Shown in pieces: positions 1,479 to 27,609 of a stretch of 32,000 nucleotides of DNA (positions are counted from its first letter, which is position 1; each line of letters begins with the position of its first letter). Origin of the DNA: Candidatus Methylomirabilis limnetica (GTDB lineage Bacteria; Methylomirabilota; Methylomirabilia; Methylomirabilales; Methylomirabilaceae); contig NZ_NVQC01000009.1 in the NCBI RefSeq assembly GCF_003044035.1, positions 120,001 through 152,000 of the forward strand, written 5' to 3'. The position numbers and the translations under genes were made by a program. A model generated the notes under the pieces. That model was given only the letters and a program-made list of their open reading frames with translations. It searched no databases and had not been told where the DNA came from.

Positions 1479-1516
1479 AACTCCAAGCGGTGAGCTGTCA
1501 GCGCTCAGCAATTGGT

Positions 1517-1571
1517 GTAGGGGCAGGGCTTGCCCTGCCCAAAGAGGGCGCAGCAAGCAGCGCCCATACGC
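1517..1571. repeat. REP-like double-hairpin extragenic repeat, copy 1
   Basis: The sequence GTAGGGGCAGGGCTTGCCCTGCCCAAAGAGGGCGCAGCAAGCAGCGCCCATACGC is nearly identical to 27555..27609. It has two stems, GGGCAGGGC/GCCCTGCCC and GGGCGC/GCGCCC. It lies just upstream of a minus-strand start codon. Confidence 0.8.
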
Positions 1572-3753: not shown

Positions 3754-4156
3754 GATTCAGCTCTCAGCCCTTCAGCCGTGGCTGACCGCTGATGGTTGAT
3801 GACCGTTAGGAGCACTCGGTCGAGGTGAGAATACCTGACATGCATCAGAAATCCAACGGGCGAGATATACCGGAGCCACTTCCTGTAATCGGCGCGGAGA
3901 GAGAAAGGACCCGCCTTTTTTCCAGGTCGGTGTCAAAGTGTTTTAAAATATTTGGCGGAATACTCAGCATATGACAGCGAACCAACAGTGACTAATCCGC
4001 GGACCGCATAGTAGGCGTTTCATATTGGATATTCCGTGCATTGCCTATTAATCATGTGCTAAATGTAATGAAACCTTATCGTTTACGTCAAGTTGTTGTT
4101 TCGTCTTGACCGTGTAGAATCATCTGTGCTGTACTTATCCGTCCATCTAATAATTG

Positions 4157-4277
4157 GTTCTCCCTTCGCGTCGCTCAGGGAGAACGCGGAGCTGAGCCGG
4201 TACCTCTTCCCGCCGCTCCGCTCCAGGAGAACCAGAGGCACGAAACCGACCACTACGCGGCGGCTCAGCCCCGCGTT
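4157..4277 (+). repeat. Palindromic boundary repeat type C (attC-like mini-unit), copy 1
   Basis: The unit reads G|TTCTCCC-N13-GGGAGAAC GCGGAGCTGAGCCGG...CGGCTCAGCCCCGCG|TTAAAT. It is about 90% identical to 8164..8284, and homology to that copy starts at GTT and stops at GTTA. Confidence 0.8.
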
Positions 4278-4302
4278 AAATAATAGTCCGGCGTGGTGCA
4301 AC

Positions 4303-5481: not shown

Positions 5482-5761
5482 GATTTGCCGGAGTGCATAT
5501 CTAGCCAGTCGTTCCAGACCGAATTTGACTCGCAGGCTCGCCAAATCGGCTGAACTTGGTCATTAGGCGGCAGTAGGCCGATGGGTATGTGATTCGGAGC
5601 GTTGCCCCCGTCAGGGAAGCAGGCCAGGATCCCGTTGAGTTCGGCGCCGAAGCGACCATCTGGAGGCTCCCTGGAAGCCGCACGTGAGGCGCCAGAGTGT
5701 AGGACGGTGGGTCTAGCCATGTATCCAGTACCGGGACATCATCGTGGGAGACATTATTAAA

Positions 5762-6541
5762 ATGAAAGGCAATTCGCCTCTCCGCCTTTTGGTCTCTCTC
5801 GTAGTTCTGGTGATCGGCGGTTGCAGCACGGTTTCCGTTCAACCGCCGTTAGGATCATCTACCGAACAAAAGCAGCACAAAGAGCGGTCCAACAATTACG
5901 AGATTGGCCGCGAGCAAGTGGCAAGCATCGGTGAGGCAGTCATCAGAGTTAAGGAATTCGAAGTCTTTGAAACCAGAGCTATCGATAGTGATCGCGTTGC
6001 CCCCGACAGAAATTTCGATGGCGTGTGTGAGCTTCCCGGACCCGACCTCAGGTTTCGCGGTACCAAAGACAAGCCGTTTCCGATTGCCGGTACGACACAA
6101 GCTAACAATGCGACGTATCGAATTATTGTGGTTGCAAGGAACCTGTCAGGTGAGTCTATCGGGGTGGCGTTGAACGCTGATTCTGGCGTGGCAGCCGGTC
6201 CGTGTGCCCATCGAACTCTTCTCGGGTGGCGATTAGTAGGCACAGCAAAGTTTTTATCGGCTGGTGGCCCACCGATTTTCTCGACCCCTACAAGGATTAC
6301 ACGCATCGTCGGGCAAATGGCTGGGCCGGACAACTTTGAATTGGTTTACTTAGGCATTACGAGACAATCGATGTCCCTTCTGTATCGAGAGTATACCGAT
6401 CAGGATTTCGCACGACCGGCGTTTTCGCAGACGCTAAACTATGACCTATCGGACTCTGATGTGATTGCGTTTCGTAAGCTTCGTATCCGAGTAATTAAAG
6501 CTGGCAATCAAGACATCCGGTATGTTGTTACAGCGAACTAG
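5762..6541 (+). CDS. Hypothetical lipoprotein
   Basis: MKGNSPLRLLVSLVVLVIGGC has a signal peptide with a lipobox (IGGC). No recognisable domain follows. Confidence 0.6.
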   Translation: MKGNSPLRLLVSLVVLVIGGCSTVSVQPPLGSSTEQKQHKERSNNYEIGREQVASIGEAVIRVKEFEVFETRAIDSDRVAPDRNFDGVCELPGPDLRFRGTKDKPFPIAGTTQANNATYRIIVVARNLSGESIGVALNADSGVAAGPCAHRTLLGWRLVGTAKFLSAGGPPIFSTPTRITRIVGQMAGPDNFELVYLGITRQSMSLLYREYTDQDFARPAFSQTLNYDLSDSDVIAFRKLRIRVIKAGNQDIRYVVTAN

Positions 6542-6650
6542 TGACCCTAAAACAGCGATAGGAATAACGCAAAAACCTTATGGGCCGCTCTGGGAGCGGA
6601 TATAAAGGGGTGTGCTCGACACAGTCCCTTTAACCCACAAGGTGAGACCC

Positions 6651-6800
6651 ATGATACGACAGACGGTGTTCCCTTTCAAGCTGCAACGGAGCGACGAGAC
6701 CTTGACCGCCCACGGAGGTTTGGCCCTGCTGGCCGAGTATAACCACAGTCTGGGGCTGCGGACCCTGGCTGATCGGCATCTGCCCAGTCCTAGAGAAAAA
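6651..6800 (+). pseudogene. N-terminal remnant of a DDE transposase (IS1380/IS4-like), cut off by the repeat motif
   Basis: MIRQTVFPFKLQRSDETLTAHGGLALLAEYNHSLGLRTLADRHLPSP resembles IS1380-type transposase N-termini as I remember them. The frame ends in the TAG of GAAAAATAGGG at 6795-6803. Confidence 0.5.
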
Positions 6801-7362
6801 TAGGGACAGACACTATTTATCGTGGTGATTCGTGGCGTGTACGGTCATGATCGTGCATTCCACGGATTACTCGAATCGTTGTACCCGGCCACCCGTATCA
6901 TGTGACGCGAAAATAGGGACAGACACTATTATCGTGACGATTCGTGGTGTTCGCGGTCATGATCGTGCAGGCCACGGATTGCTCGAATCGTTGCACATGG
7001 CCACCCGTATCATGTGACGCAACGAGGGAATTATCGCTAGGCGGCCTTTCGGCACGACAGCGATTCGAAAAATAGGGACAGACACTATTATCGTGACAAT
7101 TCGTGGTGCTCGTGGTCATTATCGTACATGTCATGGATTGCTGGAATGGTTGCACCAAGCCACCCGTATCATGTGACGCAACGAGGGAATTATCACCAGA
7201 CGGTTTTTCGGAACGACAGCGATTCGTAGGCACACGATGACAGAGCGACCACTGGGAAGAGATGGGTTCATCTGGGAGGTGCGCAGGAAACTGGGACGAG
7301 TAATACGCGTGTTGCAGAGGGGAAGGCCAAGACAGGACCTCAACGAATAGTGTCTGTCCTTA
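6795..7362 (+). repeat. Module A array: two 3'-truncated copies followed by one full 290-nt copy
   Basis: Each unit starts at GAAAA(A)TAGGGACAGACACTATT (TAGGG at 6801, 6914 and 7073). Unit 1 stops after ~108 nt and unit 2 after ~154 nt. Unit 3 runs to the inverted repeat AATAGTGTCTGTCCTTA at 7346-7362. Confidence 0.85.
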
Positions 7363-7486
7363 TACCCTACCCATCCGGCGAGGTGTCAGACTGCGTGTCC
7401 GGCATCTGGGATGAACTCGCGGCTGGCGCGCCAGGAGAAGACGCTCCGGCCGGGGTGCGCCTACCACCCTGACTGAATCTGCCGAA

Positions 7487-7558
7487 CCGCCGTATACGTG
7501 ATCCGTATGTACGGTGGCGTGGGAGGGGGGAGGCCGTGAGGCCCCTCCCTATCCCGAT
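7487..7558 (+). ncRNA. Group II intron domains V and VI (class C type)
   Basis: Domain V is CCGCCGUAUACGUGAUCCGUAUGUACGGUGG: a CGC triad, a 2-nt bulge on the 3' strand and a 5-bp upper stem. Domain VI is a G-rich/C-rich helix with a GUGA loop and a bulged A at 7551, which is 7 nt from the ...GAU end. Confidence 0.8.
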
Positions 7559-7573
7559 TGGTTTTTACGCAGA

Positions 7574-7603
7574 TTGACAACGATTGAAGATTCAGGCCAT
7601 ATT
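7574..7603 (+). promoter_or_regulatory. Candidate sigma70-type promoter for the phd-like gene
   Basis: TTGACA (7574-7579), an 18-nt spacer and CATATT (7598-7603) lie about 30 nt upstream of the start codon. This rests on a pattern match only. Confidence 0.3.
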
Positions 7604-7634
7604 TGGTACCACTAATGGACTGGAGGTTATCATA

Positions 7635-7922
7635 ATGAAAATTAAAGAAGACATTAAACCCATTTCTTATTTGAAGTCTCGGTCTGCTGATTTAATATCC
7701 CAAATTAACGAAACTCGTAGGCCAGTGATAATTACTCAGAATGGTGAACCTCGTGCAGTTATTCAGGACGCGGAGTCCTATGAAAAAACAATCAATTCTC
7801 TAAACTTAATGAGAATATTGGCGCATGGAGAGAAAGCCATCCAAAAAGGGGACACCATCAAACAAGAAGACCTTTTTAAGCGAATTGATGAAACCTTAAT
7901 GAAAAGGAAGACACATCAATAG
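7635..7922 (+). CDS. Phd/YefM-family type II antitoxin
   Basis: MKIKEDIKPISYLKSRSADLISQINETRRPVIITQNGEPRAVIQDAESYE is a Phd/YefM signature. An RBS (TGGAGG) lies 8 nt upstream of the ATG at 7635. Confidence 0.8.
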   Translation: MKIKEDIKPISYLKSRSADLISQINETRRPVIITQNGEPRAVIQDAESYEKTINSLNLMRILAHGEKAIQKGDTIKQEDLFKRIDETLMKRKTHQ

Positions 7923-7925
7923 ACC

Positions 7926-7987
7926 ATGAAAAGATTCGGGGTTGAGTGGGCTCAGCCAGCGAGTAATATAGAAATAGGCAAGGGAAA
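7926..7987 (+). pseudogene. Truncated RelE/ParE-like toxin gene (first ~20 codons only)
   Basis: An ATG lies 3 nt after the phd stop. It reads MKRFGVEWAQPASNIEIGKG and then runs straight into the repeat motif GAAATAGGGACAGACAC. The call rests on position and on the N-terminal pattern. Confidence 0.35.
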
Positions 7988-8166
7988 TAGGGACAGACAC
8001 TATTATTGTGCATGAATCGGTGTTCCAGAGGGCCGTCAAAGAGGCAAGGCTCAGGGCTGGCATAGAAAATATGGACAGCGACTATTTGTTTGGATTTGCC
8101 TGCATCGGCTGATAACCAGGGCATCAACTCGGACACGGCTTCGCCGCGTCGGTTATGCCCGCCGTT
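7985..8166 (+). repeat. Boundary repeat unit (hairpin motif, recombinase-like fragment, second hairpin motif, type B arm)
   Basis: The unit is collinear with 14288..14472. Its last ~100 nt are also collinear with 17941..18042. Homology ends at GCCCGCCG|TT (8158-8166). Confidence 0.85.
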
Positions 8167-8284
8167 CTCCCTTCGCTTCGCTCATGGAGAACGCGGGGCT
8201 GAGCCGGTGCCCCTTCCCTCCGCTCCGCTACGGGAGAACCAGGGGCACGAAACCGACCGCTTCGCGGCGGCTCAGCCCCGCGTT
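8164..8284 (+). repeat. Palindromic boundary repeat type C (attC-like mini-unit), copy 2
   Basis: GTTCTCC (8164-8170) is complementary to GGAGAAC (8186-8192). The perfect 17-nt arms AACGCGGGGCTGAGCCG (8190-8206) and CGGCTCAGCCCCGCGTT (8268-8284) pair with each other. An inner stem is GTGCCCCT/AGGGGCAC. Confidence 0.85.
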
Positions 8285-8348
8285 AGCTGACTTGTGCGAT
8301 TGCTTCGCGATCACAGTTCGTTCTGGTTAGACAAAGTGATTCAGAAAA

Positions 8349-8365
8349 TGGAATGTTTCATTCCA
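8349..8365. promoter_or_regulatory. Inverted repeat upstream of katG, candidate operator
   Basis: TGGAATG-TTT-CATTCCA lies about 40 nt upstream of the katG ATG. The regulator is unknown. Confidence 0.25.
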
Positions 8366-8376
8366 CGCAGCCGTAG

Positions 8377-10602
<2,226 letters not shown>

Positions 10603-10609
10603 GCGTGGT

Positions 10610-11085
10610 ATGAGCGTTTTCGAGGGCTTCACAGGACGGCAGAAGCGGTCAGCTAACAGCCGGTTCCAGCGGACGGCGCTGCGCGCCGCCGCTGAACCGG
10701 AACGTTGGGCGGCGTGCGGGCATCTGCCTGAGCCGAATGGGAGAACCGTCATCCCGACACTCCACCTGATGTGTGGCCTTCCGTGCTCGGGGAAGACAAC
10801 GCTTGCAAGGCAACTGGCGTCCACGCATCGTGCGGTCCGGCTAACGCCAGACGAGTGGCACACGCGCCTGTTTGGCCAAGATGCGGATTCACCCGAGCAC
10901 GATGTTCGGCACAGCGTCGTAGAGTCGCTCCAGTGGGAGGTCGCCGTCCAGGTGCTTTACCAGAACGTAGACGTGATTCTGGACTTCGGATTCTGGAGCA
11001 AGAGCGAGAGGGAAGACTACCGATCGAGAGGGGATGAGATCGGAGCAGAGATGCGCATTCACTACCTGAATGTGCCCGAGAAAAA
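10610..11085 (+). pseudogene. P-loop kinase (AAA_33/zeta-toxin-like), 3'-truncated by module A
   Basis: The Walker A motif is MCGLPCSGKTTLARQL. The native sequence ends at ...IHYLNVPEK, where GAGAAAAATAGGGACAG begins. The stop codon lies inside the repeat (tracked ORF end 11110). The start codon is uncertain. Confidence 0.55.
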
Positions 11086-11375
11086 TAGGGACAGACACTA
11101 TTTATCGTGACAATTCGTGGTGTTGACGGTCATGATCGTGCATGCCACGGATTACCCGAACCGTTGCATCCGGCCACCCGTAGTCTGTGAGGCAACGGGT
11201 GAATGATCGCCAGGCGATCTTTCGAAACGATAGCGATTCGAATGCGTAAGATGACATAGCGGCCACTGCAAATAGACGGGGTCATCTGGGAGGTGCGCAG
11301 GAAACTGGATGAGTAATACACGTGTTGCAGAGGGGAGCACCAAGAAAGGATTTCAATAAATAGTGTCTGCCCCTA
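11081..11375 (+). mobile_element. Module A, solitary copy (290 nt, bounded by inverted repeats)
   Basis: The ends are TAGGGACAGACACTATT (11086-11102) and AATAGTGTCTGCCCCTA (ending at 11375). The interior is collinear with 7073-7362 and 16226-16517. No intron 5' or 3' parts flank this copy. Confidence 0.8.
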
Positions 11376-11573
11376 TATCCGAACGGTGGCGTTGCCGCTC
11401 CGCTGCGGCGGAATGGCAACGCCGAGCGGATCAAGGATCCGCTGGCTGGCCTCCACTTCGCTACGGTCAACCAGCGGATCTAGTGGACTACAGCTCAGCC
11501 GAGCAAGCTCGGCTCCGCTTCCGCCGCTCATCCGCGCGGTATTAGGCCGATTTTTAGTTGAAAGGAGCGATCC

Positions 11574-11717
11574 ATGAACCGTCAGTTCCCAATTCTTTCC
11601 GCCCTCTCGGTTGTTCCTCGAGCCCTTGGATGGCTCGTGCTCGCCGGTGGGGTTGAGTGGGGTTGGAAGTTCCTCTCTCCCCCTTGCCGGCGTCTCCGTA
11701 GTCATCGCCGCGGATGA
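11574..11717 (+). CDS. Possible 47-aa hydrophobic peptide
   Basis: A strong RBS (AAAGGAG) lies 7 nt before the ATG. The product is MNRQFPILSALSVVPRALGWLVLAGG.... I recognise no homology, and the ORF is too short for the ORF track. Confidence 0.2.
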   Translation: MNRQFPILSALSVVPRALGWLVLAGGVEWGWKFLSPPCRRLRSHRRG

Positions 11718-11788
11718 AATCGCCTATGGTTAGAACCATCGAATGTTCGCGCCGATTCCTCTGGCACGGTGCCTGCTTCTTCTCGGGC

Positions 11789-14251
11789 ATGGACCGAATC
11801 GCGCTCACCATCGCAATCGTCGTCGCTGCTCTCGGATCGGCGCACGCGACACCGCCCGTCGTCCCCGAGCCCGCGCCGATGTGCGTCGAGAACCCGCTCG
11901 AAGGCATGGAGCGGCCGCTCCGCGATACCTCCGAGTGCCCGAGCTTAGCGGCGACGGTCCGCACGATCCGCGCGGTCGCCGCCGAGTTCTTCAAGGACTG
12001 CTCGCTCGATCGCCCCGAGGTCGGGAGGAAATACTCGGAGATCGCCTCGCGCTACGTCGGCATGCCGCCGCAGACGGGTCTGCCAATGATGGTCGCCGAG
12101 TTCGCCTCCGAGGTCGGCAGTGACGGAACGCGCTGCGCGATCCGCGCCGTCGTCAAGGAGGGGTTGCCGGTCAGCAGCGAGACGCGGGAGCAGCTCGTAT
12201 CGGTCGTCAACGGGTTCTTCGAGGCGCAGGACGTCAAGGATCTCTTCGAAGACATCGCCGAGAGCGCGCCGCTGACCGCGGCCGCCAACTTAAAGCGCGA
12301 CGAGCTCTCCAGGAAGTTCGCCAACGAGCTGAACGACCGGGTCGCGGCGTCCGAGGAGCTCCGCGGGAACGCCAACGATTTTCAGTCGCTGAGAGCGAAG
12401 GTCATCTGGGCTATCACGGACGATTCGGCCCGGGCGCGTGCCGCACTCGGCGCGGTCGAGGAGTCGCTCGTTACGTGCAGGGTCGTGGAGGCGGCCAAGA
12501 GCCTCTCCGAAGCCGTAGCGGCCGGCCAGCGCGCCTTGCAAGGCGCGCGGCGCGAGATCCGTGCTTCCGAGAGGGCCGCGGAATGCGCGGAGATCAACCT
12601 TCGACTACAGTACGGCGAGGCCTGGAACCTACAACAAGCGGTCATCGCCGGACCGACGCTCGACCAGTATCGGAGCGTCGTGGCTGCGATCCAGAGGTTG
12701 AAGCAGGACGAAAAGGCGCTCGACGCGTTGCTGCGGCGAGCGGGCGAGAGCTGTCTGCGATTGAAGCAGCAGGTCGGGGTCCGCGACCGGCTGGTCGCCC
12801 ACCATACCGCCGCGAAGGCCCGCGCCATGGCTGCGATCGACGGACGCGCCTGCGACGGCTCGGGGATCGAGGAGGCCGCCGCCACGTTGCGCACTCTGGA
12901 AGGCGCCACCTGCGGCAACCAGGCGAAGCCCGCGGCCAACGAGGTTCTGACCAGGCGCGCGGTGCTCCGCGACGAGCTGCGGCAGAGCGGCGAGTGCAGC
13001 GCGGCGGCGGGCGTGGGTGCGGGCGAGTTCCAGGGCCCGTGGCAATGCCCGCAGCGAGGCACGCTCATGCTCCAGGGAAGCGCAACCGGGGTCAGCGGGT
13101 CGGTGAGCGGCCGCCCAGGCGAGCACTGGGGGACGGGCCAACGTGAGGGAGGGCGGATCGGCGGAACCGTGGAGGGCCGCACGCTTCGCTTGACGATGGA
13201 ATCTGGCGACGGGACCACGAGCCGCATGACGGCGACGTTGTCAATGGACGGGCGCACGATGTCCGGCCCTTGGGAGTGGTTCCGCGGCCCCGCCCGATTG
13301 GACGGTGGCACGTGGAGCTGTCAGCGGCCGGCGGGTTACGCCGGCGGAGGGACTGCTGCGGGGAGAGAGACGGCTTCGCGCAGGACCGCTCGGGTGCCCG
13401 ATATGGTCATTCCCGTCGCGGGGCACGTTGCCAGAACCGGCGGCGGAACCGATCCGTATCAGACGCTCACCGTGCGCGCCCACATCGAGCCCGAGCGGAT
13501 CTCGTGGATCGCATGGAATGACCGACGCGACGTCTCGCTCGTCGTCGCGTCGCGGCCGAACCAGAAGCTGCTAGGTCCAGGGGGCTTCGGAACCGACGAC
13601 TACATCGATCTGACCGTCACGGACCCGTTGGGACGCTCGATGACCGTCAAGATGGATCAGAACGACAAGTACGGCGCATCCTACGGGCCACAGAATCTCA
13701 TCCTCGGATCTCGCGCCAACGCGCCCGCCGCCTACCGCAAGATCCCGTTCGGCCCGACGGCGGGCCAGGAGCTGTTCTTCGACCAGGACGGGGCCTTCAA
13801 CTCGCTGTTCACGAAGGCGGGTCAGTACACGTTCACGTTCGCGTTTCGAGACAACGAGGGGGGCAGGACGGGGTATGGGCACACGAGCATCTTCCTCATC
13901 ATCGCCGCCAGGCAGTCGGCACTCGAAGGCACCGCGGCGAGCGGCGCTCCGGTCGCGCCGGGTTCGAAGAGTCTCTCGTTTGGCGGACGCGTGCTCGACG
14001 TGAGGTACGAGCGCCAGACCGATGAGCGAGGCGTACCGATCGATCTCTACTTCTACCGCACGGCAGCGCCCCCGGGCGTTCCCGCACCCGCCGGCGAGGC
14101 CCAGTGGAGCCGCTTCGTGCGCGTTCCGGCGGACGGGGGCGACTCGAGCGAGCCGGCGGTCTGGTGGCACTCGCGCTGGGAATTCGGTCCAAACGGCTGG
14201 ACGTCGATGGGCGAGAAGGACGTCGCGCCGCCGCAAGCGGTGACGCCGTAA
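11789..14251 (+). CDS. Large secreted hypothetical protein (helical/coiled N-terminal half, beta-rich C-terminal half)
   Basis: The signal peptide is MDRIALTIAIVVAALGSAHA. The frame stays open for 820 codons in a very GC-rich stretch. I recognise no domain. Confidence 0.6.
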   Translation: MDRIALTIAIVVAALGSAHATPPVVPEPAPMCVENPLEGMERPLRDTSECPSLAATVRTIRAVAAEFFKDCSLDRPEVGRKYSEIASRYVGMPPQTGLPMMVAEFASEVGSDGTRCAIRAVVKEGLPVSSETREQLVSVVNGFFEAQDVKDLFEDIAESAPLTAAANLKRDELSRKFANELNDRVAASEELRGNANDFQSLRAKVIWAITDDSARARAALGAVEESLVTCRVVEAAKSLSEAVAAGQRALQGARREIRASERAAECAEINLRLQYGEAWNLQQAVIAGPTLDQYRSVVAAIQRLKQDEKALDALLRRAGESCLRLKQQVGVRDRLVAHHTAAKARAMAAIDGRACDGSGIEEAAATLRTLEGATCGNQAKPAANEVLTRRAVLRDELRQSGECSAAAGVGAGEFQGPWQCPQRGTLMLQGSATGVSGSVSGRPGEHWGTGQREGGRIGGTVEGRTLRLTMESGDGTTSRMTATLSMDGRTMSGPWEWFRGPARLDGGTWSCQRPAGYAGGGTAAGRETASRRTARVPDMVIPVAGHVARTGGGTDPYQTLTVRAHIEPERISWIAWNDRRDVSLVVASRPNQKLLGPGGFGTDDYIDLTVTDPLGRSMTVKMDQNDKYGASYGPQNLILGSRANAPAAYRKIPFGPTAGQELFFDQDGAFNSLFTKAGQYTFTFAFRDNEGGRTGYGHTSIFLIIAARQSALEGTAASGAPVAPGSKSLSFGGRVLDVRYERQTDERGVPIDLYFYRTAAPPGVPAPAGEAQWSRFVRVPADGGDSSEPAVWWHSRWEFGPNGWTSMGEKDVAPPQAVTP

Positions 14252-14287
14252 ACAGCGTAAAAATAAAAATAAAATAGGAAAAATAGG

Positions 14288-14472
14288 AATAATAGGGACA
14301 GACACTATTTATCGTGAATGACTCGATGATCCAGAAGGCCGTCAAGGAGGCAAGGCTCAGGGCTGGCATGGAAAATAGGGACAGCGACTATTTGTTTAGA
14401 TTTGCCTGCATCGGCTGATAACCAGGACATCAACTCGGACACGGCTTCGCCACGCCGGTTATGCCCGCCGTT
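14288..14472 (+). repeat. Boundary repeat unit (hairpin motif, recombinase-like fragment, second hairpin motif, type B arm)
   Basis: The unit is collinear with 7985..8166 and ends at GCCCGCCG|TTATGCG (G at 14470). Stuttered partial starts (AAAATAGG AAAAATAGG AATAATAGGG) precede it at 14271-14297. Confidence 0.85.
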
Positions 14473-14551
14473 ATGCGCCTTAAAAATAAATCCTTCAAAT
14501 AATCCAATGAATGTGTATGATATAGTTATATATACACATAGGAGGTAAGGT

Positions 14552-14746
14552 ATGAGAACGAATGTAGTCATAGATGACGATCTGATGGAATCCGCCCTCA
14601 AGGTGTCCGGCCTCAGAACAAAAAAGGATGCCATAGAAGAGGGGTTGAAACTGTTGGTGCAAGTCAAACGCCAGAAAGAAATTAAGCGGTTTCGAGGAAA
14701 ACTCAAATGGTCTGGTAATCTCGACGAGATGAGGTTAGACAAATGA
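14552..14746 (+). CDS. vapB: VapB-family type II antitoxin
   Basis: MRTNVVIDDDLMESALKVSGLRTKKDAIEEGLKLL is typical of the VapB/DUF2191 type. Its stop overlaps the vapC start by 4 nt. Confidence 0.8.
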   Translation: MRTNVVIDDDLMESALKVSGLRTKKDAIEEGLKLLVQVKRQKEIKRFRGKLKWSGNLDEMRLDK

Positions 14747-15138
14747 TTCTCGTTGATTCGTCCGTCTGGATCGACTACTTCAACGGCAATAAAACGTCTC
14801 AGACGGACTGGCTGGACTCTTCACTTGGAAATACACCCATCATCATAGGTGATCTTATCCTAACCGAAGTTCTTCAGGGATTTCAGAACGATAAAGACTT
14901 TAAGACAGCCAGGGATATTCTCTTAGGTATCCCATTTATGTCGATGGGAGGACAGGTATTAGCCCTAGAGAGCGCCATGAACTATAGATTGTTGAGGAGA
15001 AAAGGCGTGACGGTAAGGAAGACCATAGACGTCATGATTGGAACTTTCTGTATCCACCACCAGCAAACATTGTTGCATGATGACAGGGATTTCGATCCGA
15101 TAGTTAAGTTCTTAGGCCTGAAGACAATAGTCACATAA
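14743..15138 (+). CDS. vapC: VapC PIN-domain toxin
   Basis: MILVDSSVWIDYFNG...DLILTEVLQG...HDDRDFD contains the PIN acidic residues in the usual order. Confidence 0.85.
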   Translation: MILVDSSVWIDYFNGNKTSQTDWLDSSLGNTPIIIGDLILTEVLQGFQNDKDFKTARDILLGIPFMSMGGQVLALESAMNYRLLRRKGVTVRKTIDVMIGTFCIHHQQTLLHDDRDFDPIVKFLGLKTIVT

Positions 15139-15316
15139 CCAATCAAACCACCGGACCCTCGTTCCTCGTGCCGGTGATCTTTTCGTTGGCTCGTAAAATG
15201 AATACTGTGGAGAAAAACAAATATGCAGGCACAAAACGAAACATTATCTGAGAGTGCCGCTGAAGGGCGCGTCTCTCAGCGTCGTACTCCAGAACCGTAA
15301 CTAACGGAGGTGACAC

Positions 15317-15793
15317 TTGAAAAATAGGGTTTATATCGAAACTTCGGTTATTAGTTATCTCACGGCACGCCCAAGCAACGACATCCGTGCAATAGCCAAT
15401 CAGAATGTCACCATCGAGTGGTGGGAGACGCAGCGGCTCAATTTCGATTTATTCATATCGGAGTTTGTCGTTGCTGAAGTAAGTCTTGGGCATCCTGACG
15501 CCGTAAAGCGACGTCTTGAGGCAATCGCCGACATTATGGAGCTGGAAGCAACAGAAGAGGTCCGGGTGCCGGGCCAGGAACTTATCCGGCGCAACGTTTT
15601 GCCCGCAAATGCCGAAATTGACGCTTATCATGTGGCTATTGCTACCGTGAACGGCATCGAATATCTTCTGACCTGGAATTGCACTCATATTGCTAATGCT
15701 CATACACGGCCAAAGATTGAGGCCACCTGTCGGGCGCTTGGTTACGAGCCGCCCATCATCTGCACACCGCAAGAACTAACGGAGGAGGTTTAG
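15317..15793 (+). CDS. PIN-like domain protein (toxin-type)
   Basis: The start is TTG with a GGAGGTG RBS. MKNRVYIETSVISYL...AEIDAYHVAIATVNGIEYLLTWNCTHI matches a PIN-like family that is usually paired with a small downstream gene. Confidence 0.65.
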   Translation: MKNRVYIETSVISYLTARPSNDIRAIANQNVTIEWWETQRLNFDLFISEFVVAEVSLGHPDAVKRRLEAIADIMELEATEEVRVPGQELIRRNVLPANAEIDAYHVAIATVNGIEYLLTWNCTHIANAHTRPKIEATCRALGYEPPIICTPQELTEEV

Positions 15794-15795
15794 CT

Positions 15796-16032
15796 ATGTG
15801 GCAAGACCCTATCGTCAAGGAGACGCGTACACTTAGAGAAGAATACGCCAATCAGTTCGATCACAATGCTGACGCGATATTTCAAGACATTTTGCGAAGG
15901 CAAGCCGCATCTGGTAAAAAACTGGTTTCTTTCAAGCATCGCAAACCTGTGCCATCGAAAATTGCAGCAAAACAGGAAAGACCAGTTTCAAGCTTACACA
16001 CTTCAACGGCTGCAATAAAACAGAGCAAATGA
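15796..16032 (+). CDS. Small partner protein of the PIN-like gene (putative antitoxin, reversed gene order)
   Basis: It starts 2 nt after the PIN stop. MWQDPIVKETRTLREEYANQFDHNADAIFQDILRRQAASGKKLVSF resembles small proteins that commonly sit next to such PIN genes. Confidence 0.5.
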   Translation: MWQDPIVKETRTLREEYANQFDHNADAIFQDILRRQAASGKKLVSFKHRKPVPSKIAAKQERPVSSLHTSTAAIKQSK

Positions 16033-16094
16033 GCGAACGTCCAACCAGCGGCTCGACACCGACCGGGCTTCGCCCGGGCAGCTCAGCCCGCCGT
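16033..16094 (+). repeat. Boundary-repeat right arm (type C-like) forming the intron 5' exon
   Basis: ...ACCGACCGGGCTTCGCCCGGGCAGCTCAGCCCGCCGT resembles the right arm of type C (AACCGACCGCTTCGCGGCGGCTCAGCCCCGCGT) and contains the stem CCGGGC/GCCCGG. A weaker relative lies at about 11466-11510. Confidence 0.6.
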
Positions 16095-16220
16095 GTGTGC
16101 CGGGCATGGCACAGAACTGACGGGGTGCAAGTCCCCGTGCCAGGTTTAAGCAGAGCCGAAGGCTAGGAGAAGGGCAAGAGCCTGCCCCGGACTCGATCCG
16201 GGGGCGTCATCGTGAGGTGG

Positions 16221-16517
16221 GAAAATAGGGACAGACGCTATATATTGTGACGAGTCGTGGTGTTTACCGTCATGACCCGCGCCTTGCTACGGATTACCTG
16301 AACCGTTGTACCCGGCCACCCGTATCATGTGATGCAACGAGGGAATGATCACCAGGCGGTCTTTCGGCACGACAGCGATTCGAAGGCACACGATGACAGA
16401 GCGGCCACTACGAAGAGACGGGTTCATCTGGGATGTGCGCAGGAAACTGGACGAGTAATACACATGTTGCAGAGGGGAACACTAAGAAAGGATCTCAATA
16501 AAGAGTGTCTGTCCCTA
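16221..16517 (+). repeat. Module A copy nested in intron domain I
   Basis: The copy runs from GAAAATAGGGACAGACGCTAT... to ...AGAGTGTCTGTCCCTA. The flanking intron sequence GGUGGG/CCCAgCC could close a helix around it, so it appears to sit in a hairpin loop. Confidence 0.8.
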
Positions 16518-16636
16518 TACCCAGCCGGCGAGGTACCAGACTGCGTGCCCGGCATCTGGGATGAACTCGCGGCTGGCGCGCCAGGAGAAGACGCTCCGGT
16601 TGTGATGCGCATACCACCCTGACGGAATCTGCCAAG

Positions 16637-16708
16637 CCGCCGTATACGTGATCCGTATGTACGGTGGTGTGGGAGGGGAGAGGCCGTGAGGACTCCCCCT
16701 GTCCCGAT
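16637..16708 (+). ncRNA. Group II intron domains V and VI
   Basis: Domain V (CCGCCGUAUACGUGAUCCGUAUGUACGGUGG) is identical to the copy at 7487. The domain VI helix differs from the other copy by one apparently compensatory pair. The position of the bulged A is a G here (16701). Confidence 0.8.
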
Positions 16709-16775
16709 TCTCCCTTCCCTCCGCTCCGGGAGAACCATGGGCACGAAACCGACCGCCTTGCGACACATGGGAGCT
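16709..16775 (+). repeat. Degenerate, internally deleted type C repeat (intron 3' exon)
   Basis: TCTCCCTTCCCTCCGCTCCGGGAGAACCATGGGCACGAAACCGACCGCC is type C with a deletion between two CCCTTC direct repeats. The right arm has diverged. Confidence 0.65.
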
Positions 16776-16780
16776 GAAAG

Positions 16781-17884
16781 ATGCCTTCTCTTTTTCAATG
16801 GAACGACACGTTTCTGACCCATATTGACTCCGTTGATGAACAGCATCAGCGACTGGTTGGCCTGATTAACCAGCTTGGCGACATGGTGATGTCTGGCAAG
16901 GATTTTGATCCTCAGTCGCTTGCCTCGGTTCGTGACAGCATCCTGAACTATGCGATCGTTCATTTCGGTGACGAAGAGGCATTGATACGCACTGCGGGGC
17001 TTGATCCGAGATATCTCCAACGACAGTATTCCGACCATAAGGTCTTCATGCACGAAGCCACTGTTCTGGGAGACAAGGAGAGCACTCTCTCCATAGAAAA
17101 GATCATGCGTCTGGAAAACTACCTTGTCTATTGGCTAGTCCGTCATATCCTTGAAGTTGACCATAGCATGGTCCGCCAGATCCATGCTATGCGCGAGGGA
17201 AAGACACCAACCGAGGCGTTCGATCTGGAAAACGAGCTGCAGAACTCCAGCGCCGAACCCCTGTTGTCGGCAATGAATGGGCTGTTCCTCGTTGTCTCCG
17301 AGCGCAATCGTGAACTCTACGCCTTGAACCGTGATCTGGAACAACGCGTGGAGCAGCGAACGATGGAGCTGGAGCAAGCCAACCGGGAGTTGCAACTGCA
17401 GTCCACGCACGATGATCTGACGGGATTGCCCAACCGCCGATTCGCCATGCTCAGCCTCGACCAGCTATGGAAGGAGCGACAACGTTATGGCGAGCCGCTT
17501 TCCCTGCTGTTGCTCGACGCCGACCATTTTAAGCAGGTAAACGATAGTTTTGGCCACGCCCAAGGTGACGAACTCCTCCGGATTATCGCCGAGCGTTTGC
17601 GCCAGTCCGTGCGTGCCAGCGACATTGTCCACCGCCTCGGCGGCGATGAGTTTCTGGTGATCTGTCCAAGGAGCGACCGAGAGGGTGCCACGGTAGTCGC
17701 CAACAAGATCCTGACTGAATCCAGACCATTGCAAACCGCGGAAGGTGTGGAATGCTGGGATGGATCCTTGAGTATTGGCATTGCCGAGTGTAACAGCTCC
17801 ATGGCCCGGCATGAAGATCTGCTGAAAGCCGCCGATCAGGCCATGTACCTTGCAAAAAGCAAGGGTGGCGGATGCGCAGTCTGA
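16781..17884 (+). CDS. Hemerythrin-domain diguanylate cyclase (GGDEF)
   Basis: The N-terminus WNDTFLTHIDSVDEQHQRLVGLIN is of the bacteriohemerythrin type. A coiled linker follows. The C-terminal domain carries DDLTGLPNRR...LLLLDADHFKQVND..GH..GD...RLGGDEFLV, an intact GGDEF motif. Confidence 0.85.
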   Translation: MPSLFQWNDTFLTHIDSVDEQHQRLVGLINQLGDMVMSGKDFDPQSLASVRDSILNYAIVHFGDEEALIRTAGLDPRYLQRQYSDHKVFMHEATVLGDKESTLSIEKIMRLENYLVYWLVRHILEVDHSMVRQIHAMREGKTPTEAFDLENELQNSSAEPLLSAMNGLFLVVSERNRELYALNRDLEQRVEQRTMELEQANRELQLQSTHDDLTGLPNRRFAMLSLDQLWKERQRYGEPLSLLLLDADHFKQVNDSFGHAQGDELLRIIAERLRQSVRASDIVHRLGGDEFLVICPRSDREGATVVANKILTESRPLQTAEGVECWDGSLSIGIAECNSSMARHEDLLKAADQAMYLAKSKGGGCAV

Positions 17885-17940
17885 ACATCGAAAGTGAGGG
17901 CAGGAAATATGAGAATTGGATTGCGTGAAGGTGGAATTGA

Positions 17941-18042
17941 GAAAATAGGGACAGCGACTATTTGTTTAGAGTTGCCTGCATTGGCTGATAACCAGGACAT
18001 CAGCTCGGACACGGCTTCTCCGCGCCGATTATGCCCGCCGTT
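17941..18042 (+). repeat. Boundary repeat (hairpin motif variant plus type B arm) at the right end of the island
   Basis: The repeat runs from GAAAATAGGGACAGCGACTATTTGTTTAGAG... to ...GATTATGCCCGCCG|TTGAGCGC. The G|TT junction (18040/18041) is 8 nt from the mfnF-like stop codon. Confidence 0.85.
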
Positions 18043-18048
18043 GAGCGC

Positions 18049-19083
18049 TTATCCATGAGAGAGTGCCTGCCCCAAGAGGTAGGCAGCCGCCGCGCATGGG
18101 CTCAATGTTACAGATCCGCTATCGGTTAATACTGGAGGGTCGCACGTCGTAAGATACATCCGCCTTGTGCAGGCCTCCCCCAGGAAGGCGCCGATCCCCA
18201 CCGACACCACAGGCAGACGGAGGCCGTTCTCGATCCTGGAGAGGACATGAAGCATCCCCTCCGTGATCTGTTGGAGCTGTTTTTCGGCGATGTAGGCGGC
18301 CAGGGCGTGAAGCTCTCCGGCCGTGAGATGCTTGCTGTCCTCGCAGGCCACCCTGGCCAGGCGTTCTAGTGCTCCCTCTTTAGTTTTCTCGCGGCCGTCA
18401 GGAGTCGCGCAGGTGTAGTCTTCTGGCGTTAGCCTCCCCAATGCCAGATAGACGTCCGCCGAGATGGCGAAGTATTCAGCCGCGATTCGACAGATTACCC
18501 CTCGCATGGGGATCTGGGACACGATGGCCGCAACAGGCGTGCGGAGGGCGCCCGTGTAGATCAGCTCCCCGTGCGCTAATCGTTCGATATCCCGCTTGCC
18601 CTGTGCGGCGAGCTTTCCGTCCAGGATCGGAATCAGATCGGTGGTGGTGCTGCCGATATCCATCATCAGGCAGTTCGGTTGTCGACTCGCCAATACCCGC
18701 GCCTCGGCGATCCAATTCGTTGCCGCAAGGGTTAGGAGATCCGCCTCCCCCCCGTCTAAGCGAACGATCCGGCCCTCGAGATCGATGGCATATAGTGGGA
18801 TCCCGGGGATCGCCTCTCTCACCGCGTCGATGATGTATGCCACCCCTTCGGCCCTGTCGTGGAACGCATCACAGAGCTCCCCAGTCATGGTCAACACCAT
18901 CGCATCGGCCGATCCCAGATCGCTGTGGATCTCCTGCAGGAGTGGGTGGAGACCTTCTCTCTTGTTCCACAGCTCAAAATAGCGGCGAACCGTGCGCCCA
19001 CTCTCGGCGCGCCCGTCAGTGAATAGAAGGCGGGCTGCCTTCACGTTCGCGCCGCCGATGTCCCATCCGATCACCCGGATCAC
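18049..19083 (-). CDS. mfnF: Hydantoinase/oxoprolinase-fold H4MPT-linked C1-transfer-pathway protein (MfnF-like)
   Basis: MIRVIGWDIGGANVKAA...MDIGSTTTDLIPI is an ASKHA-type fold typical of this family. The gene overlaps the upstream ATP-grasp gene by 4 nt. Confidence 0.6.
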   Translation of the reverse strand: MIRVIGWDIGGANVKAARLLFTDGRAESGRTVRRYFELWNKREGLHPLLQEIHSDLGSADAMVLTMTGELCDAFHDRAEGVAYIIDAVREAIPGIPLYAIDLEGRIVRLDGGEADLLTLAATNWIAEARVLASRQPNCLMMDIGSTTTDLIPILDGKLAAQGKRDIERLAHGELIYTGALRTPVAAIVSQIPMRGVICRIAAEYFAISADVYLALGRLTPEDYTCATPDGREKTKEGALERLARVACEDSKHLTAGELHALAAYIAEKQLQQITEGMLHVLSRIENGLRLPVVSVGIGAFLGEACTRRMYLTTCDPPVLTDSGSVTLSPCAAAAYLLGQALSHG

Positions 19084-27513: not shown

Positions 27514-27554
27514 AATCCTCACGCATTATGGCTGTTCAGCTACCGGCCGTCCCT

Positions 27555-27609
27555 GTAGGGGTAGGGCTTGCCCTACCCAAAGAGGGCGCAGCAAGCAGCG
27601 CCCCTACGC
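27555..27609. repeat. REP-like double-hairpin extragenic repeat, copy 2
   Basis: The sequence is GTAGGGGTAGGGCTTGCCCTACCCAAAGAGGGCGCAGCAAGCAGCGCCCCTACGC. It lies between the glyS stop and the PRT start. Confidence 0.8.

What the first reader, a model, noticed from the sequence alone, without database searches (positions are those of the whole stretch)
14288..14472. Boundary repeats all lose homology at the same ...GCCCGCCG|TT junction
- **Shared end.** Three copies of the type B arm (ending at 8166, 14472 and 18042) and the intron-bearing arm (ending at 16094) share ...(T)TATGCCCGCCGTT or ...GCTCAGCCCGCCGT.
- **Divergence after the junction.** They then diverge immediately into GTTCTCC, GTTATGC, GTTGAGC and the intron. 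GTTGAGC fits the integron R' consensus GTTRRRY, and GTTATGC nearly does.
- **Imperfect hairpin.** Each arm carries an imperfect hairpin, GGC[tg]ATAACC...GGTTATGCC, with extrahelical bases.
- **Position.** These sites lie downstream of cargo blocks (after the phd block, after the 820-aa gene, after the PIN pair and after the GGDEF gene).
- **Interpretation.** Together with type C, this suggests a shared crossover point used repeatedly to build the array.
Basis: seen in the sequence. Interest (0 to 1): 0.75.

Follow-up and report, generated by a model that had tools for sequence, protein, structure and literature searches.

The report
Integron cassette-array recombination junctions (attC sites)
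The repeats that all lose homology at ...GCCCGCCG|TT are the recombination sites (attC) of an integron gene-cassette array that has lost its integrase, so the shared junction is the ordinary integron crossover point, here sitting inside unusually scrambled repeat arms.

Summary
Three 'type B' arms end in GCCCGCCGTT (8157-8166, 14463-14472, 18033-18042) and then diverge. A fourth arm ends in GCCCGCCGT at 16094, where a group II intron starts.

The junction is an integron G|TT crossover. Window 4158-18040 is a cassette array with an attI-like site but no integrase gene (a CALIN).
- **Related genomes:** cassette content changes exactly at these G|TT points.
- **'Type C' repeat:** it is a discrete 118-nt ORF-less cassette. 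I found 31 copies among 120 metagenome hits, with 29 different right flanks that are mostly TTRRRY-like.
- **Integrase link:** two type C loci carry a full integron integrase gene (TIGR02249) and one an intI pseudogene.

Only the last ~60 nt of a B arm is attC-like, and it aligns with the I-type and C-type attCs. The rest is debris: two REP motifs of a RAYT/IS200-like family around a ~55-nt integrase pseudogene fragment.

The intron sits at GT|T in the attC top strand, co-oriented with the cassettes, which is atypical.

Verdict: a new member of a known kind, of modest interest.

The parts
3863..4157 (+). attI-like region; cassette insertion point is G4157|T4158 (...CCATCTAATAATTGG|TTCTCCC). 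No intI gene follows; the AA-kinase gene 3040-3753 (-) abuts it.
   Evidence: Homologous to the intI-to-first-cassette spacer of L204. The same ...ATCTAATAAYTGG| flank precedes different first cassettes in L214 (TTGGGCC, Mrr-like), L184, L164, L183, L185, L197 and L224.
4158..4275 (+). Type C ORF-less cassette, copy 1 (118 nt, TTCTCCC...GCCCCGCG); R' = G4275|TTAAAT
7986..8003 (+). B1 arm: REP#1 motif (AATAGGGACAGACACTAT)
8010..8063 (+). B1 arm: integron-integrase pseudogene fragment (HESVFQRAVKEARLRAGI)
   Evidence: 93.7% nt identity to L188 947-1025, which continues into the IntI C-terminus
8068..8085 (+). B1 arm: REP#2 motif (CG variant)
8110..8166 (+). B1 arm: X-type attC (R'' TGATAAC 8110-8116; L box GGGCAT-C-AAC / GTTATGCCC; R' G8164|TT)
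   Evidence: bottom-strand fold -17 kcal/mol, z -2.99
8165..8282 (+). Type C ORF-less cassette, copy 2 (118 nt); R' = G8282|TTAGCTG
   Evidence: (z -4.2)
8283..10704 (+). KatG cassette. Its own attC is 10650-10706: R'' CAGCTAAC is complementary to the cassette start TTAGCTG; R' = G10704|TTGGGC.
11542..14470 (+). 845-aa ORF cassette, from TTAGGCC to G14470. Its native attC is replaced or extended by the B2 arm.
   Evidence: Left boundary fixed by L131, where a type C unit precedes it...GCCCCGCG|TTAGGCCGATTTTTAG
14291..14472 (+). B2 arm (the finding): REP#1 14291-14308; intI fragment 14317-14369 (DSMIQKAVKEARLRAGM); REP#2 14374-14391; X-type attC 14416-14472 (R'' TGATAAC 14416-14422, G14470|TT)
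14471..15185 (+). VapBC cassette (starts TTATGCG). Own attC 15133-15187: R'' ACATAAC, R' = G15185|TTGGCT.
   Evidence: L214 diverges from the window just after GTTGG
16039..16094 (+). I-type attC of the PIN158/78-aa cassette (R'' GTCCAAC; ends ...GCCCGCCG16093 T16094), interrupted by the intron
   Evidence: Uninterrupted homologue in L214...CATCCCCGCG|TTAGGCC
16095..16708 (+). Degenerate ORF-less group II intron (5' GTGTG; DV-DVI 16635-16708), carrying a RAYT/REP remnant at 16220-16522. A second 3' fragment lies at 7368-7558.
   Evidence: Rfam RF00029 31.3 bits, E 3.9e-4, below the gathering score of 40. The joined exons reproduce the B1/type C junction GCCCGCCGT|TCTCCCTTC.
16709..16767 (+). 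Truncated one-unit type C cassette (3' exon of the intron), fused to the GGDEF gene upstream region
17944..18042 (+). B3 arm, short form: REP#2 17944-17961; X-type attC 17986-18042 (G18040|TT). It is the last site of the array; the chromosomal flank TTGAGCGC starts 7 nt before the stop codon of the hydantoinase-like gene (18049-19083, -).
   Evidence: The same chromosomal junction carries three other left partners in L130, L214 and L216.

Best explanation
Window 4158-18040 is an integron-type gene-cassette array. It has an attI-like site at its proximal end and no integrase gene, so it is a CALIN. It is inserted between methanopterin/methanofuran-type housekeeping genes.

The junction ...GCCCGCCG|TT is the R' core (G|TTRRRY) of one attC family, which I call X-type. 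An integron integrase, supplied in trans or formerly in cis, exchanges strands at this point. Everything to the left of G stays with one cassette, and TT onward belongs to the next cassette. That is why all copies lose homology at the same base.

Only the last ~60 nt of each B arm is the attC: R'' TGATAAC, spacer, L box, spacer, GTT. The upstream 45-125 nt is debris: two REP motifs of a RAYT/IS200-like family that flank a ~55-nt integrase pseudogene fragment.

The fourth arm is a related I-type attC. A group II intron retrohomed into it at GT|T.

**Shown:** the junction positions, the cassette variation, the association with integrase, and the homology among the attC types.

**Inferred:**
- that an IntI catalysed these particular events;
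- that REP-mediated rearrangement, plus cassette duplication or deletion, spread the same REP#2-attC module behind unrelated genes.
For: 1. **The junction is non-random and shared**.
2. **It behaves as a cassette boundary in five independent right contexts:** TTCTCCC, TTATGCG, TTGAGCG, TTAGGCG in L214, and the intron.
3. **Strain and species comparisons:**
   - L130 replaces the GGDEF cassette and B3 with HicAB-like genes, yet keeps the same chromosomal junction...TTAGTC|GTTGAACGC against ...GCCCGCC|GTTGAGCGC.
   - L214 gives a third left partner...GCGGGCC|GTTGAACGC, and a different first cassette at the same attI point. L216 gives a fourth variant of the distal junction.
   - L131 places a type C unit before the 845-aa cassette, joined at G|TTAGGCC.
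4. **Cassette logic.** The inverse core is complementary to the cassette's own start:
   - KatG: CAGCTAAC against TTAGCTG.
   - Type C: GGGAGAAC against TTCTCCC.
   - VapBC: ACATAAC against TTATGCG.
   - L239 ankyrin cassette: GCCTAAC against TTAGGC.
5. **Type C in metagenomes.** There are 31 true copies among 120 sampled hits, with a fixed length of 118 or 71 nt. They have 29 distinct right flanks: 22 start with TT and 21 are within one mismatch of TTRRRY, against 4 of 89 chance hits. Of the 26 left flanks, 25 end in G.
6. **Integrase link.** Two loci with identical type C units encode integron integrases: L239 scores 483 bits and L204 373 bits against TIGR02249, whose cutoff is 265. L188 carries an IntI pseudogene. 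In L239 the order is intI, attI (G|TTAGGC), cassette, type C, cassette.
7. **The B arms carry an intI fragment** identical in register to the REP|intI junction in L188 and L271.
8. **The X, I and C sites align**, with invariant AACCAG...GCCC..CGT, and conservation ends at GTT.
9. **Typical cargo:** the array is rich in toxin-antitoxin genes (Phd, VapBC, PIN).
Against: - No integrase gene lies in the window or within ~7 kb upstream, so activity in this genome is unproven.
- X-type sites fail a strict AAC...GTT duplex scan.
- Fold support is uneven: z -2.99, -0.52 and -1.79.
- The R'' TGATAAC departs from RYYYAAC.
- The R' of B1 (GTTCTCC) departs from GTTRRRY.
- Several cassettes in the array have no attC that I could recognise (for example after 4303-5481 and 5744-6541).
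- Nearly identical REP#2-attC modules behind unrelated genes are not what IntI recombination alone produces. A second process is needed.
Confidence: 0.85

Rival explanations
1. The B arms are decayed integron platforms (delta-intI plus attI), and GCCCGCCG|TT is an attI crossover rather than an attC. This family has integrons with intI co-oriented with the cassettes, so a platform remnant would sit immediately upstream of cassettes.
For: - The B-long arms contain an intI fragment in the same orientation as the cassettes.
- L188, L239 and L271 have the order intI, attI, cassettes on one strand.
- There is weak similarity between GCCTGCATCGGCTGATAAC and the intI stop region GCCATCAGC...CAGCCATAAC, and between TTATGCC motifs.
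Against: - The attI regions downstream of the closest intI remnants (L188, L271, L272) run 150 nt to ...TATACTCAATGG|TT and do not align with X.
- X shares 36 of 53 positions (my hand count on alignment A2) and all landmarks with the I-type attC, which sits at the 3' end of ordinary cassettes.
- REP#2 lies between the intI fragment and X, so the two need not be contiguous in origin.
Confidence: 0.07
2. The shared boundary is the end of a REP/RAYT-type (HUH Y1 transposase) non-autonomous element. The transposase cleaves single-stranded DNA a fixed distance 3' of a hairpin, so every copy ends at the same base regardless of integron recombination.
For: - Each arm starts precisely at the outer end of a REP motif.
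- The motif flanks RAYT/IS200-like genes in many phyla.
- IS200/IS605-type ends use imperfect hairpins with unpaired bases and cut a few nucleotides downstream (established knowledge of that family).
Against: - Complete REP elements in the window end in an inverted REP, not in X (7347-7363, 11360-11376).
- No locus among about 120 with the REP motif carries the X end.
- REP-free attCs (type C, I-type, KatG) break at the same G|TT.
- The sequence to the right of the junction is always a cassette start, including the discrete type C cassette.
Confidence: 0.04
3. The arms are plain segmental duplications spread by homologous recombination, and the common end is inherited from one duplication event rather than from a recombination site.
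For: B1 and B2 are 92% identical over more than 160 nt, including non-functional debris, which shows common descent of the whole arm.
Against: - One duplication cannot give five different right flanks that all begin TT.
- It cannot explain the same break in the I-type and C-type sites, or the variation between strains at the chromosomal junction.
Confidence: 0.03

Closest known systems
Sedentary chromosomal integron cassette arrays and CALINs (clusters of attC sites lacking an integrase), e.g. the Vibrio cholerae superintegron with its VCR attC family
   Same: - Co-oriented promoterless cassettes, each ending in an attC.
- Exchange at G|TT of the R' core.
- The inverse core is complementary to the cassette's own start.
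- A species-typical, highly similar attC family.
- Many toxin-antitoxin cassettes.
- ORF-less cassettes.
- Cassette content that varies between strains at fixed junctions.
   Different: - No intI gene in the window; only a 55-nt intI fragment repeated inside the arms.
- Three attCs are embedded in identical REP/intI debris.
- Several cassettes lack a recognisable attC.
- Related complete integrons of this group occur with intI either divergent from the cassettes (L204) or co-oriented with them (L239, L188).
Group IIC-attC introns (e.g. S.ma.I2; PMC3001079, PMC7923331)
   Same: A group II intron inserted in an attC core at ...GT|T (published IBS1/IBS3 consensus TTGT/T), downstream of the attC stem-loop. 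It also occurs in CALINs and next to toxin-antitoxin cassettes.
   Different: - Published IIC-attC introns sit in the bottom strand at R'', opposite to cassette transcription.
- Here, and in L216, the intron is in the top strand at R', co-oriented with the genes.
- The window copy has no reverse-transcriptase ORF, is interrupted by a RAYT remnant, and scores below the Rfam gathering threshold.
REP / RAYT (REPIN) elements and IS200/IS605-derived miniature elements
   Same: A short conserved motif in direct and inverted copies, flanking a Y1 (IS200-like) transposase gene (MPRIAR..PHH(I/V)TQRGN). It is present in many copies and is associated with rearrangement breakpoints.
   Different: This explains only the left parts of the arms, not the shared right junction. 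The motif lacks the GTAG/CGTC tag of classical REPs and often appears as a single half-site.
IS1111-attC insertion sequences
   Same: Mobile elements that specifically target attC sites and disrupt them.
   Different: There is no IS110/IS1111 transposase and there are no subterminal repeats of that type here. I considered this family only as an analogy.

Membership tests
Integron attC recombination site | R' core GTTRRRY at the 3' end, with exchange between G and TT | tested here: met
   All arms end in ...G|TT. The R' sequences are GTTGAGC and GTTAGGC (fit), GTTATGC (1 mismatch) and GTTCTCC (3 mismatches, where TTCTCCC is the start of the type C cassette). Homology ends within GTT in 5 contexts. 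Of 29 type C flanks, 21 are within one mismatch of TTRRRY, against 4 of 89 controls. The exact bond within GTT cannot be resolved from sequence.
Integron attC recombination site | Inverse core R'' (RYYYAAC) at the 5' end, complementary to R' and to the cassette's own start | tested here: inconclusive
   X-type has TGATAAC: the AAC is invariant and aligned with GTCCAAC (I-type) and GGAGAAC (C-type), but the RYYY part does not fit. It is not complementary to the starts of the cassettes it now follows. The feature is clearly met for the KatG, type C, VapBC and L239 cassettes.
Integron attC recombination site | Imperfect single-strand hairpin (R box, unpaired spacer, L box, extrahelical bases on the R''/L'' arm) | tested here: inconclusive
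   A consistent register exists: AAC/GTT, CA against GCC, and GGGCAT-C-AAC / GTTATGCCC with one extra C on the 5' arm. Bottom-strand fold z is -2.99 (B1), -0.52 (B2) and -1.79 (B3). The sites were missed by a strict AAC...GTT duplex scan. I did not test covariation because there are too few independent sequences.
Integron attC recombination site | Lies at the 3' end of a cassette, with cassette content varying at the site between genomes | tested here: met
Integron attC recombination site | Recombined by an integron integrase | not testable with these tools
   Association only: the same type C cassette lies next to TIGR02249 integrases in L239 and L204.
Complete integron (intI + attI + cassettes) | Integron integrase gene adjacent to the array | tested here: not met
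   tblastn with IntI1 found nothing in the window. No recombinase is among the ORFs. The attI-like region abuts a kinase gene. Only 55-nt intI fragments are present, at 8010-8063 and 14317-14369. The array is therefore filed as a CALIN.
Complete integron (intI + attI + cassettes) | attI site where the first cassette joins | tested here: met
   ...CCATCTAATAATTGG|TT at 4157|4158 is conserved in at least 8 loci with different first cassettes, and is homologous to the spacer next to intI in L204.
Group IIC-attC intron | Group II ribozyme ends (5' GUGYG, domains V-VI, 3' AY) | tested here: met
   GTGTG at 16095. RF00029 matches its full model at 16635-16708, ending ...GAU, at 31.3 bits and E 3.9e-4, which is below the gathering score of 40. 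The joined exons recreate an intact site.
[quoted passage not shown]
   The intron is on the same strand as the cassette genes, at R' GT|T. The same holds for a relative 84% identical over a 90-nt 5'-end match in L216, which has R'' GCCTAAC upstream. The published rule is in PMC3001079 and PMC7923331.
Group IIC-attC intron | Intron-encoded protein in the IIC-attC clade | not testable with these tools
   The window copy has no ORF; a RAYT remnant occupies the middle of the intron.

The most novel reading that the evidence does not exclude
The REP#2 + X-attC module, and its longer REP#1-intI-fragment form, may be a portable attC. It lies directly behind at least five unrelated genes or gene fragments: parE, the 845-aa ORF, GGDEF, and a 280-aa gene and a gene fragment in L214. 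Its left edge is always the outer end of a REP motif and its right edge is always G|TT.

If REP/RAYT-type single-strand cleavage or REP-REP recombination routinely attaches a ready-made attC to neighbouring genes, that would be a mechanism for creating new integron cassettes. The co-oriented attC-targeting intron lineage could be part of the same process.
Probability: 0.1. Interest if true: 0.75.

Novelty: new member of a known kind. Interest (0 to 1): 0.3.

Why it matters
**What it adds.** The finding identifies a chromosomal integron cassette array. The host is probably NC10/Methylomirabilis-like, judged only from near-identical REP remnants in Methylomirabilis MAG contigs; I did not verify this.

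- It defines the array's attC families and its attI.
- It shows cassette turnover between closely related genomes.
- The array carries a catalase-peroxidase, a GGDEF regulator and several toxin-antitoxin pairs as mobile cargo.

**For specialists.** The junction itself is textbook. Four side observations are less ordinary:
- attCs embedded in REP/intI debris that is repeated behind unrelated genes;
- a very widespread 118-nt ORF-less cassette that is often the first cassette at attI;
- a group II intron lineage that targets the top strand of attC;
- widespread truncated intI remnants in this lineage.

These bear on how arrays decay and, speculatively, on how genes acquire attC sites.

Tried and rejected
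- **Rfam at gathering thresholds:** nothing found in the window.
- **Strict AAC...GTT arm-duplex scan:** recovered only type C and the KatG attC, not the B or I arms. The B arms are therefore not canonical by that test.
folds of 91-nt windows were not better than shuffles.
- **Arm starts as MITE terminal inverted repeats (Tn3-derived or IS630-like):** I first read them this way and then rejected it. In many genomes the motif precedes RAYT/IS200-like genes, and the window 'MITEs' are internally deleted copies of such a gene.
- **GTDB scan for the REP motif:** more than 120 loci across phyla, none carrying the B-arm end.
- **Viral contig scan for the arm end:** 0 hits.
- **X as the intI tail plus attI:** the attI regions of L188, L271 and L272 do not match X.
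- **Protein search with the IntI C-terminal fragment:** intended to find an intact orthologue. The best 120 hits were all 70-143-aa fragments.
- **Covariation test on the attC alignment:** not run. There are too few independent sequences and the alignment is not structure-aware.
- **Organism identity:** not established by a dedicated search.

Full report
**1. The observation**

GCCCGCCGTT occurs three times in the window, at 8157-8166, 14463-14472 and 18033-18042. Chance expectation is 0.08, and none of 100 shuffles reached three. Each occurrence is the right end of a long direct repeat: 8003-8166, 14309-14472 at 92% identity, and 17879-18042, of which only about 17940-18042 is truly shared.

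Conservation stops immediately after GTT. The flanks are CTCCC, ATGCG and GAGCG. A fourth arm ends in GCCCGCCGT at 16094 and is followed by GTGTGCC.

The arms lie after these genes:
- phd;
- the 845-aa ORF;
- a PIN gene plus a 78-aa gene;
- a hemerythrin-GGDEF gene.

The complementarity GGC[TG]ATAACC / GGTTATGCC is in the sequence, but it is not the preferred fold. Folds are not clearly better than shuffles: z from +0.38 to -1.03 for 91-nt windows, and -2.99, -0.52 and -1.79 for 66-nt bottom strands.

**2. What the arms are made of**

Each arm starts with the motif AAAATAGGGACAG(AC/CG)ACTATT, which has 10 direct copies and 2 recognisable inverted copies in the window.

In one genome per species of GTDB, this motif occurs in more than 120 loci across Omnitrophota, Elusimicrobia, Nitrospirota, Planctomycetota and Methylomirabilis. 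It often forms close inverted pairs. In at least ten loci it lies about 60 nt upstream of a gene that begins MPRIAR..PHH(I/V)T, the N-terminus of RAYT/IS200-like Y1 transposases. That assignment rests on my knowledge of the family.

The 300-nt 'MITE-like' units at 7067-7366, 11080-11380 and 16220-16522 are internally deleted copies of such a gene; PRIARIVAHGHPYHVTQRGN is still readable.

Between the two REP motifs of the long arms lies a fragment encoding HESVFQRAVKEARLRAGI (B1) or DSMIQKAVKEARLRAGM (B2). It is 93.7% identical at the DNA level to L188 947-1025. There the sequence continues as the C-terminal part of an integron integrase...[50 protein letters not shown]. L271 has the same REP|intI junction.

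A long B arm is therefore REP#1, then about 55 nt of intI pseudogene, then REP#2, then about 80 nt. The short arm B3 starts at REP#2.

**3. The last ~60 nt is an attC**

The 3' parts of the B arms (X-type) were aligned with the intron-bearing arm (I-type), an uninterrupted I-type site from L214, and the second half of the 'type C' repeat. All share an invariant frame, A.AACCAG ... GCCC..CGT(T), and conservation ends at GTT in every row. X and I share 36 of 53 positions by my hand count on that alignment.

For the one-unit type C sequence the architecture is canonical:
- R'' GGGAGAAC, which pairs with the unit's own first bases GTTCTCCC;
- a 2-nt unpaired spacer;
- an L box, GGGGC/GCCCC;
- a loop;
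- then G|TT.

By homology, the X-type site reads R'' TGATAAC, spacer CA/GCC, L box GGGCAT-C-AAC / GTTATGCCC with one extra base on the 5' arm, and R' G|TT.

**4. The region is a cassette array**

Several cassettes carry an inverse core complementary to their own start, as expected for units that circularise:

| Cassette | Coordinates | Start | Inverse core (R'') | R' |
|---|---|---|---|---|
| KatG | 8283-10704 | TTAGCTG | CAGCTAAC (10650-10657) | G10704\|TTGGGC |
| VapBC | 14471-15185 | TTATGCG | ACATAAC | G15185\|TTGGCT |
| Type C | 4158-4275, 8165-8282 | TTCTCCC | GGGAGAAC | G\|TT |

A mechanical AAC...GTT duplex scan recovers type C and the KatG site far above shuffled background. Cargo includes Phd, VapB/VapC, a second PIN protein and an AAA_33/zeta-like kinase.

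**5. Comparative tests of the junctions**

- **L130**, a strain variant with identical VapC:
  - It keeps the I arm and the intron.
  - It replaces everything from the intron's 3' end to the chromosome with HicAB-like genes and a different terminal site.
  - The chromosomal junction is at the same base...TTAGTC|GTTGAACGC against ...GCCCGCC|GTTGAGCGC.
- **L214**, with core genes about 92% identical:
  - It has the same attI flank joined to a different first cassette: ...CCATCTAATAACTGG|TTGGGCC, an Mrr-like gene.
  - It has a long B arm ending in GCCCGCCG|TTAGGCG.
  - It has an uninterrupted I-type attC, ...CCCCGCG|TTAGGCC.
  - It has a short B arm behind yet another gene.
  - It gives a third left partner at the chromosomal junction...GCGGGCC|GTTGAACGC.
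- **L216** gives a fourth version of the distal end.
- **L131** puts a type C unit in front of the 845-aa cassette, joined at G|TTAGGCC. The window has another partner at the same point.
- **L140** shows phd with an intact parE. The window has lost about 300 nt of parE.

**6. Type C in metagenomes, and the integrase**

Of these, 31 are true copies:
- The unit has a fixed length: 118 nt, or 71 nt for the one-unit form.
- Of its 26 left flanks, 25 end in G.
- It has 29 distinct right flanks. Of these, 22 begin with TT and 21 are within one mismatch of TTRRRY, against 4 of 89 chance hits.
- In about nine loci, and in the window, it is the first cassette at a conserved attI.

It found integrase genes in L239 (54.5% identity over 319 aa) and L204 (40% over 315 aa), and a pseudogene in L188. 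Both full genes exceed the curated cutoff of TIGR02249 'integron integrase': 483 and 373 bits against a cutoff of 265.

L239 reads, on one strand: intI, attI (...ATAG|TTAGGC), an ankyrin cassette with R'' GCCTAAC...CAGCACG|TTCTCCC, type C...GCCCCGCG|TTATGAC, then the next cassette. In L204 intI is divergent, and the spacer between intI and the first cassette is homologous to window 3863-4157.

The window itself has no integrase gene. The attI-like region abuts a kinase gene, so the array is an integrase-less CALIN.

**7. The intron**

Positions 16095-16708 begin with GTGTG and end with a full-length match to Rfam Intron_gpII (domains V-VI). The match scores 31.3 bits with E 3.9e-4, below the gathering score of 40.

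Joining the exons gives GCCCGCCGT|TCTCCCTTC, identical to the uninterrupted B1/type C junction at 8157-8174. The insertion is therefore at GT|T of the R' core, on the same strand as the cassette genes.

A relative, 84% identical over a 90-nt match at the intron's 5' end, sits at ...AACGCGAACGT|GTGTGCC in L216, inside a canonical attC with R'' GCCTAAC upstream.

Published IIC-attC introns insert at TTGT/T but in the bottom strand, opposite to cassette transcription. One top-strand exception has been reported (PMC3001079, PMC7923331).

The window copy has no ORF and is interrupted by a RAYT remnant. The L130 copy also lacks domain V. These copies are probably dead.

**8. Mechanism**

The shared loss of homology is the signature of integron recombination, known from the established model of attC x attI and attC x attC exchange between G and TT. 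Sequence to the left of G stays with one cassette, and sequence from TT onward belongs to the neighbour.

Different left partners at the fixed distal chromosomal junction fit attC x attC deletions that remove terminal cassettes.

IntI alone does not explain near-identical REP#2-attC modules behind unrelated genes. The left edges coincide with REP outer ends, so I infer REP-associated rearrangement, such as REP-REP recombination or RAYT-type cleavage, together with cassette duplication. This step is inference.

**9. Rivals**

- **attI remnant.** The attI regions next to the closest intI remnants do not match X.
- **End of a REP element.** Complete REP elements end in an inverted REP, and no REP locus elsewhere carries X.
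- **A single segmental duplication.** It cannot give five different TT-initiated flanks.

**10. Verdict**

This is a known kind of system: a chromosomal integron cassette array (CALIN). Novelty lies in the side features, not in the junction. Interest 0.3.

Noticed in passing
window 4158-4275 and 8165-8282 (remnant at 16709-16767); L152, L156, L163, L164, L169, L177, L183-L185, L188, L193, L197, L204, L217, L218, L224, L239, L240 and others: Type C is a discrete ORF-less cassette of fixed length: 118 nt, or 71 nt for the one-unit form. It is about 90-98% conserved across many groundwater, sediment and soil metagenomes, and in about nine loci plus the window it is the first cassette at attI. The two-unit form folds into a long perfect hairpin (z -4.2). 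Its function is unknown; it could be a promoter, a regulatory element or a selfish mini-cassette.
   Followed up: partly
window 6799, 6912, 7071, 7986, 8068, 11084, 14291, 14374, 16224, 17944 (+); 7347, 11360 (inverted); loci L004-L123: The REP-like motif AATAGGGACAG(AC/CG)ACTATT is exactly conserved across very distant phyla and in one Asgard MAG. It flanks RAYT/IS200-like transposase genes and often forms inverted pairs 10-30 nt apart.
   Followed up: partly
window 7967-7985, 14263-14290; L214 9900-9910 and 9630-9620; L216 1885-1870; L078, L088: The 5' end of the REP motif (AAAATAGG) is partly reiterated just upstream of many copies, for example AAAATAGGAAAAATAGGAATAATAGGGACAG. This looks like stuttering at that end during copying or insertion.
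   Followed up: no
window 6795-7366: Three head-to-tail partial copies of the RAYT remnant, truncated at different internal points (after 113 and 159 nt), each followed by a new copy that starts exactly at the REP left end. This pattern suggests a one-ended or template-switching mode of spread.
   Followed up: no
L188 947-1210, L271 130-423, L272 4538-5336; proteins P0001-P0120: Integrase genes of this lineage are commonly pseudogenes. The best 120 database hits to the IntI C-terminal 83 aa are all 70-143-aa fragments. L188 and L271 are cut by a REP at the same codon (..HHL|HESV..). L188 also carries a frameshift, and in L272 the integrase region is split into three short consecutive ORFs (92, 93 and 111 aa).
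   Followed up: partly
window 16095-16708 and 7368-7558; L216 10502-10639; L130 2101-2566: A group II intron lineage that inserts at GT|T in the top strand of attC sites, co-oriented with the cassettes. In L130 the sequence downstream of the intron differs from the window exactly from the intron's 3' end. This suggests homologous recombination between intron copies as an additional way of swapping cassettes.
   Followed up: partly
window 7923-7985 compared with L140 2754-3074: The ParE toxin gene that follows phd in L140 is deleted in the window (about 300 nt, between ...GCGAGTA and ATAGAAATAGG). This leaves an orphan Phd antitoxin.
   Followed up: yes
window 6612-6803: A short ORF (MIRQTVFPFKLQRSDETLTAHGGLALLAEYNHSLGLRTLADRHLPSP) that I recall as resembling the N-terminus of IS1380-type transposases. 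It is cut off by the first REP copy and has no Pfam hit.
   Followed up: no
window 1516-1571 and 27554-27609; L214 13613-13668: A second, unrelated REP-like family (TGTAGGGGCAGGGCTTGCCCTGCCC...GGGCGCAGCAAGCAGCGCCC) of the GTAG-tagged type, lying in core-genome intergenic regions.
   Followed up: no
window 10705-11541: The AAA_33/zeta-toxin-like kinase cassette is disrupted by a RAYT remnant at 11080-11380. Its attC 3' end joins the next cassette imprecisely: ...CCGCGCGGTA|TTAGGCC has three extra bases relative to ...CCCCGCG|TTAGGCC in L131.
   Followed up: partly
L140 890-1876 (-): In another genomic context of the phd-parE cassette, next to a TerC gene, a 328-aa reverse-transcriptase ORF lies on the opposite strand. 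It is directly adjacent to the REP remnant and to the 3' fragment of the intron. It may be a second intron in inverted orientation.
   Followed up: no
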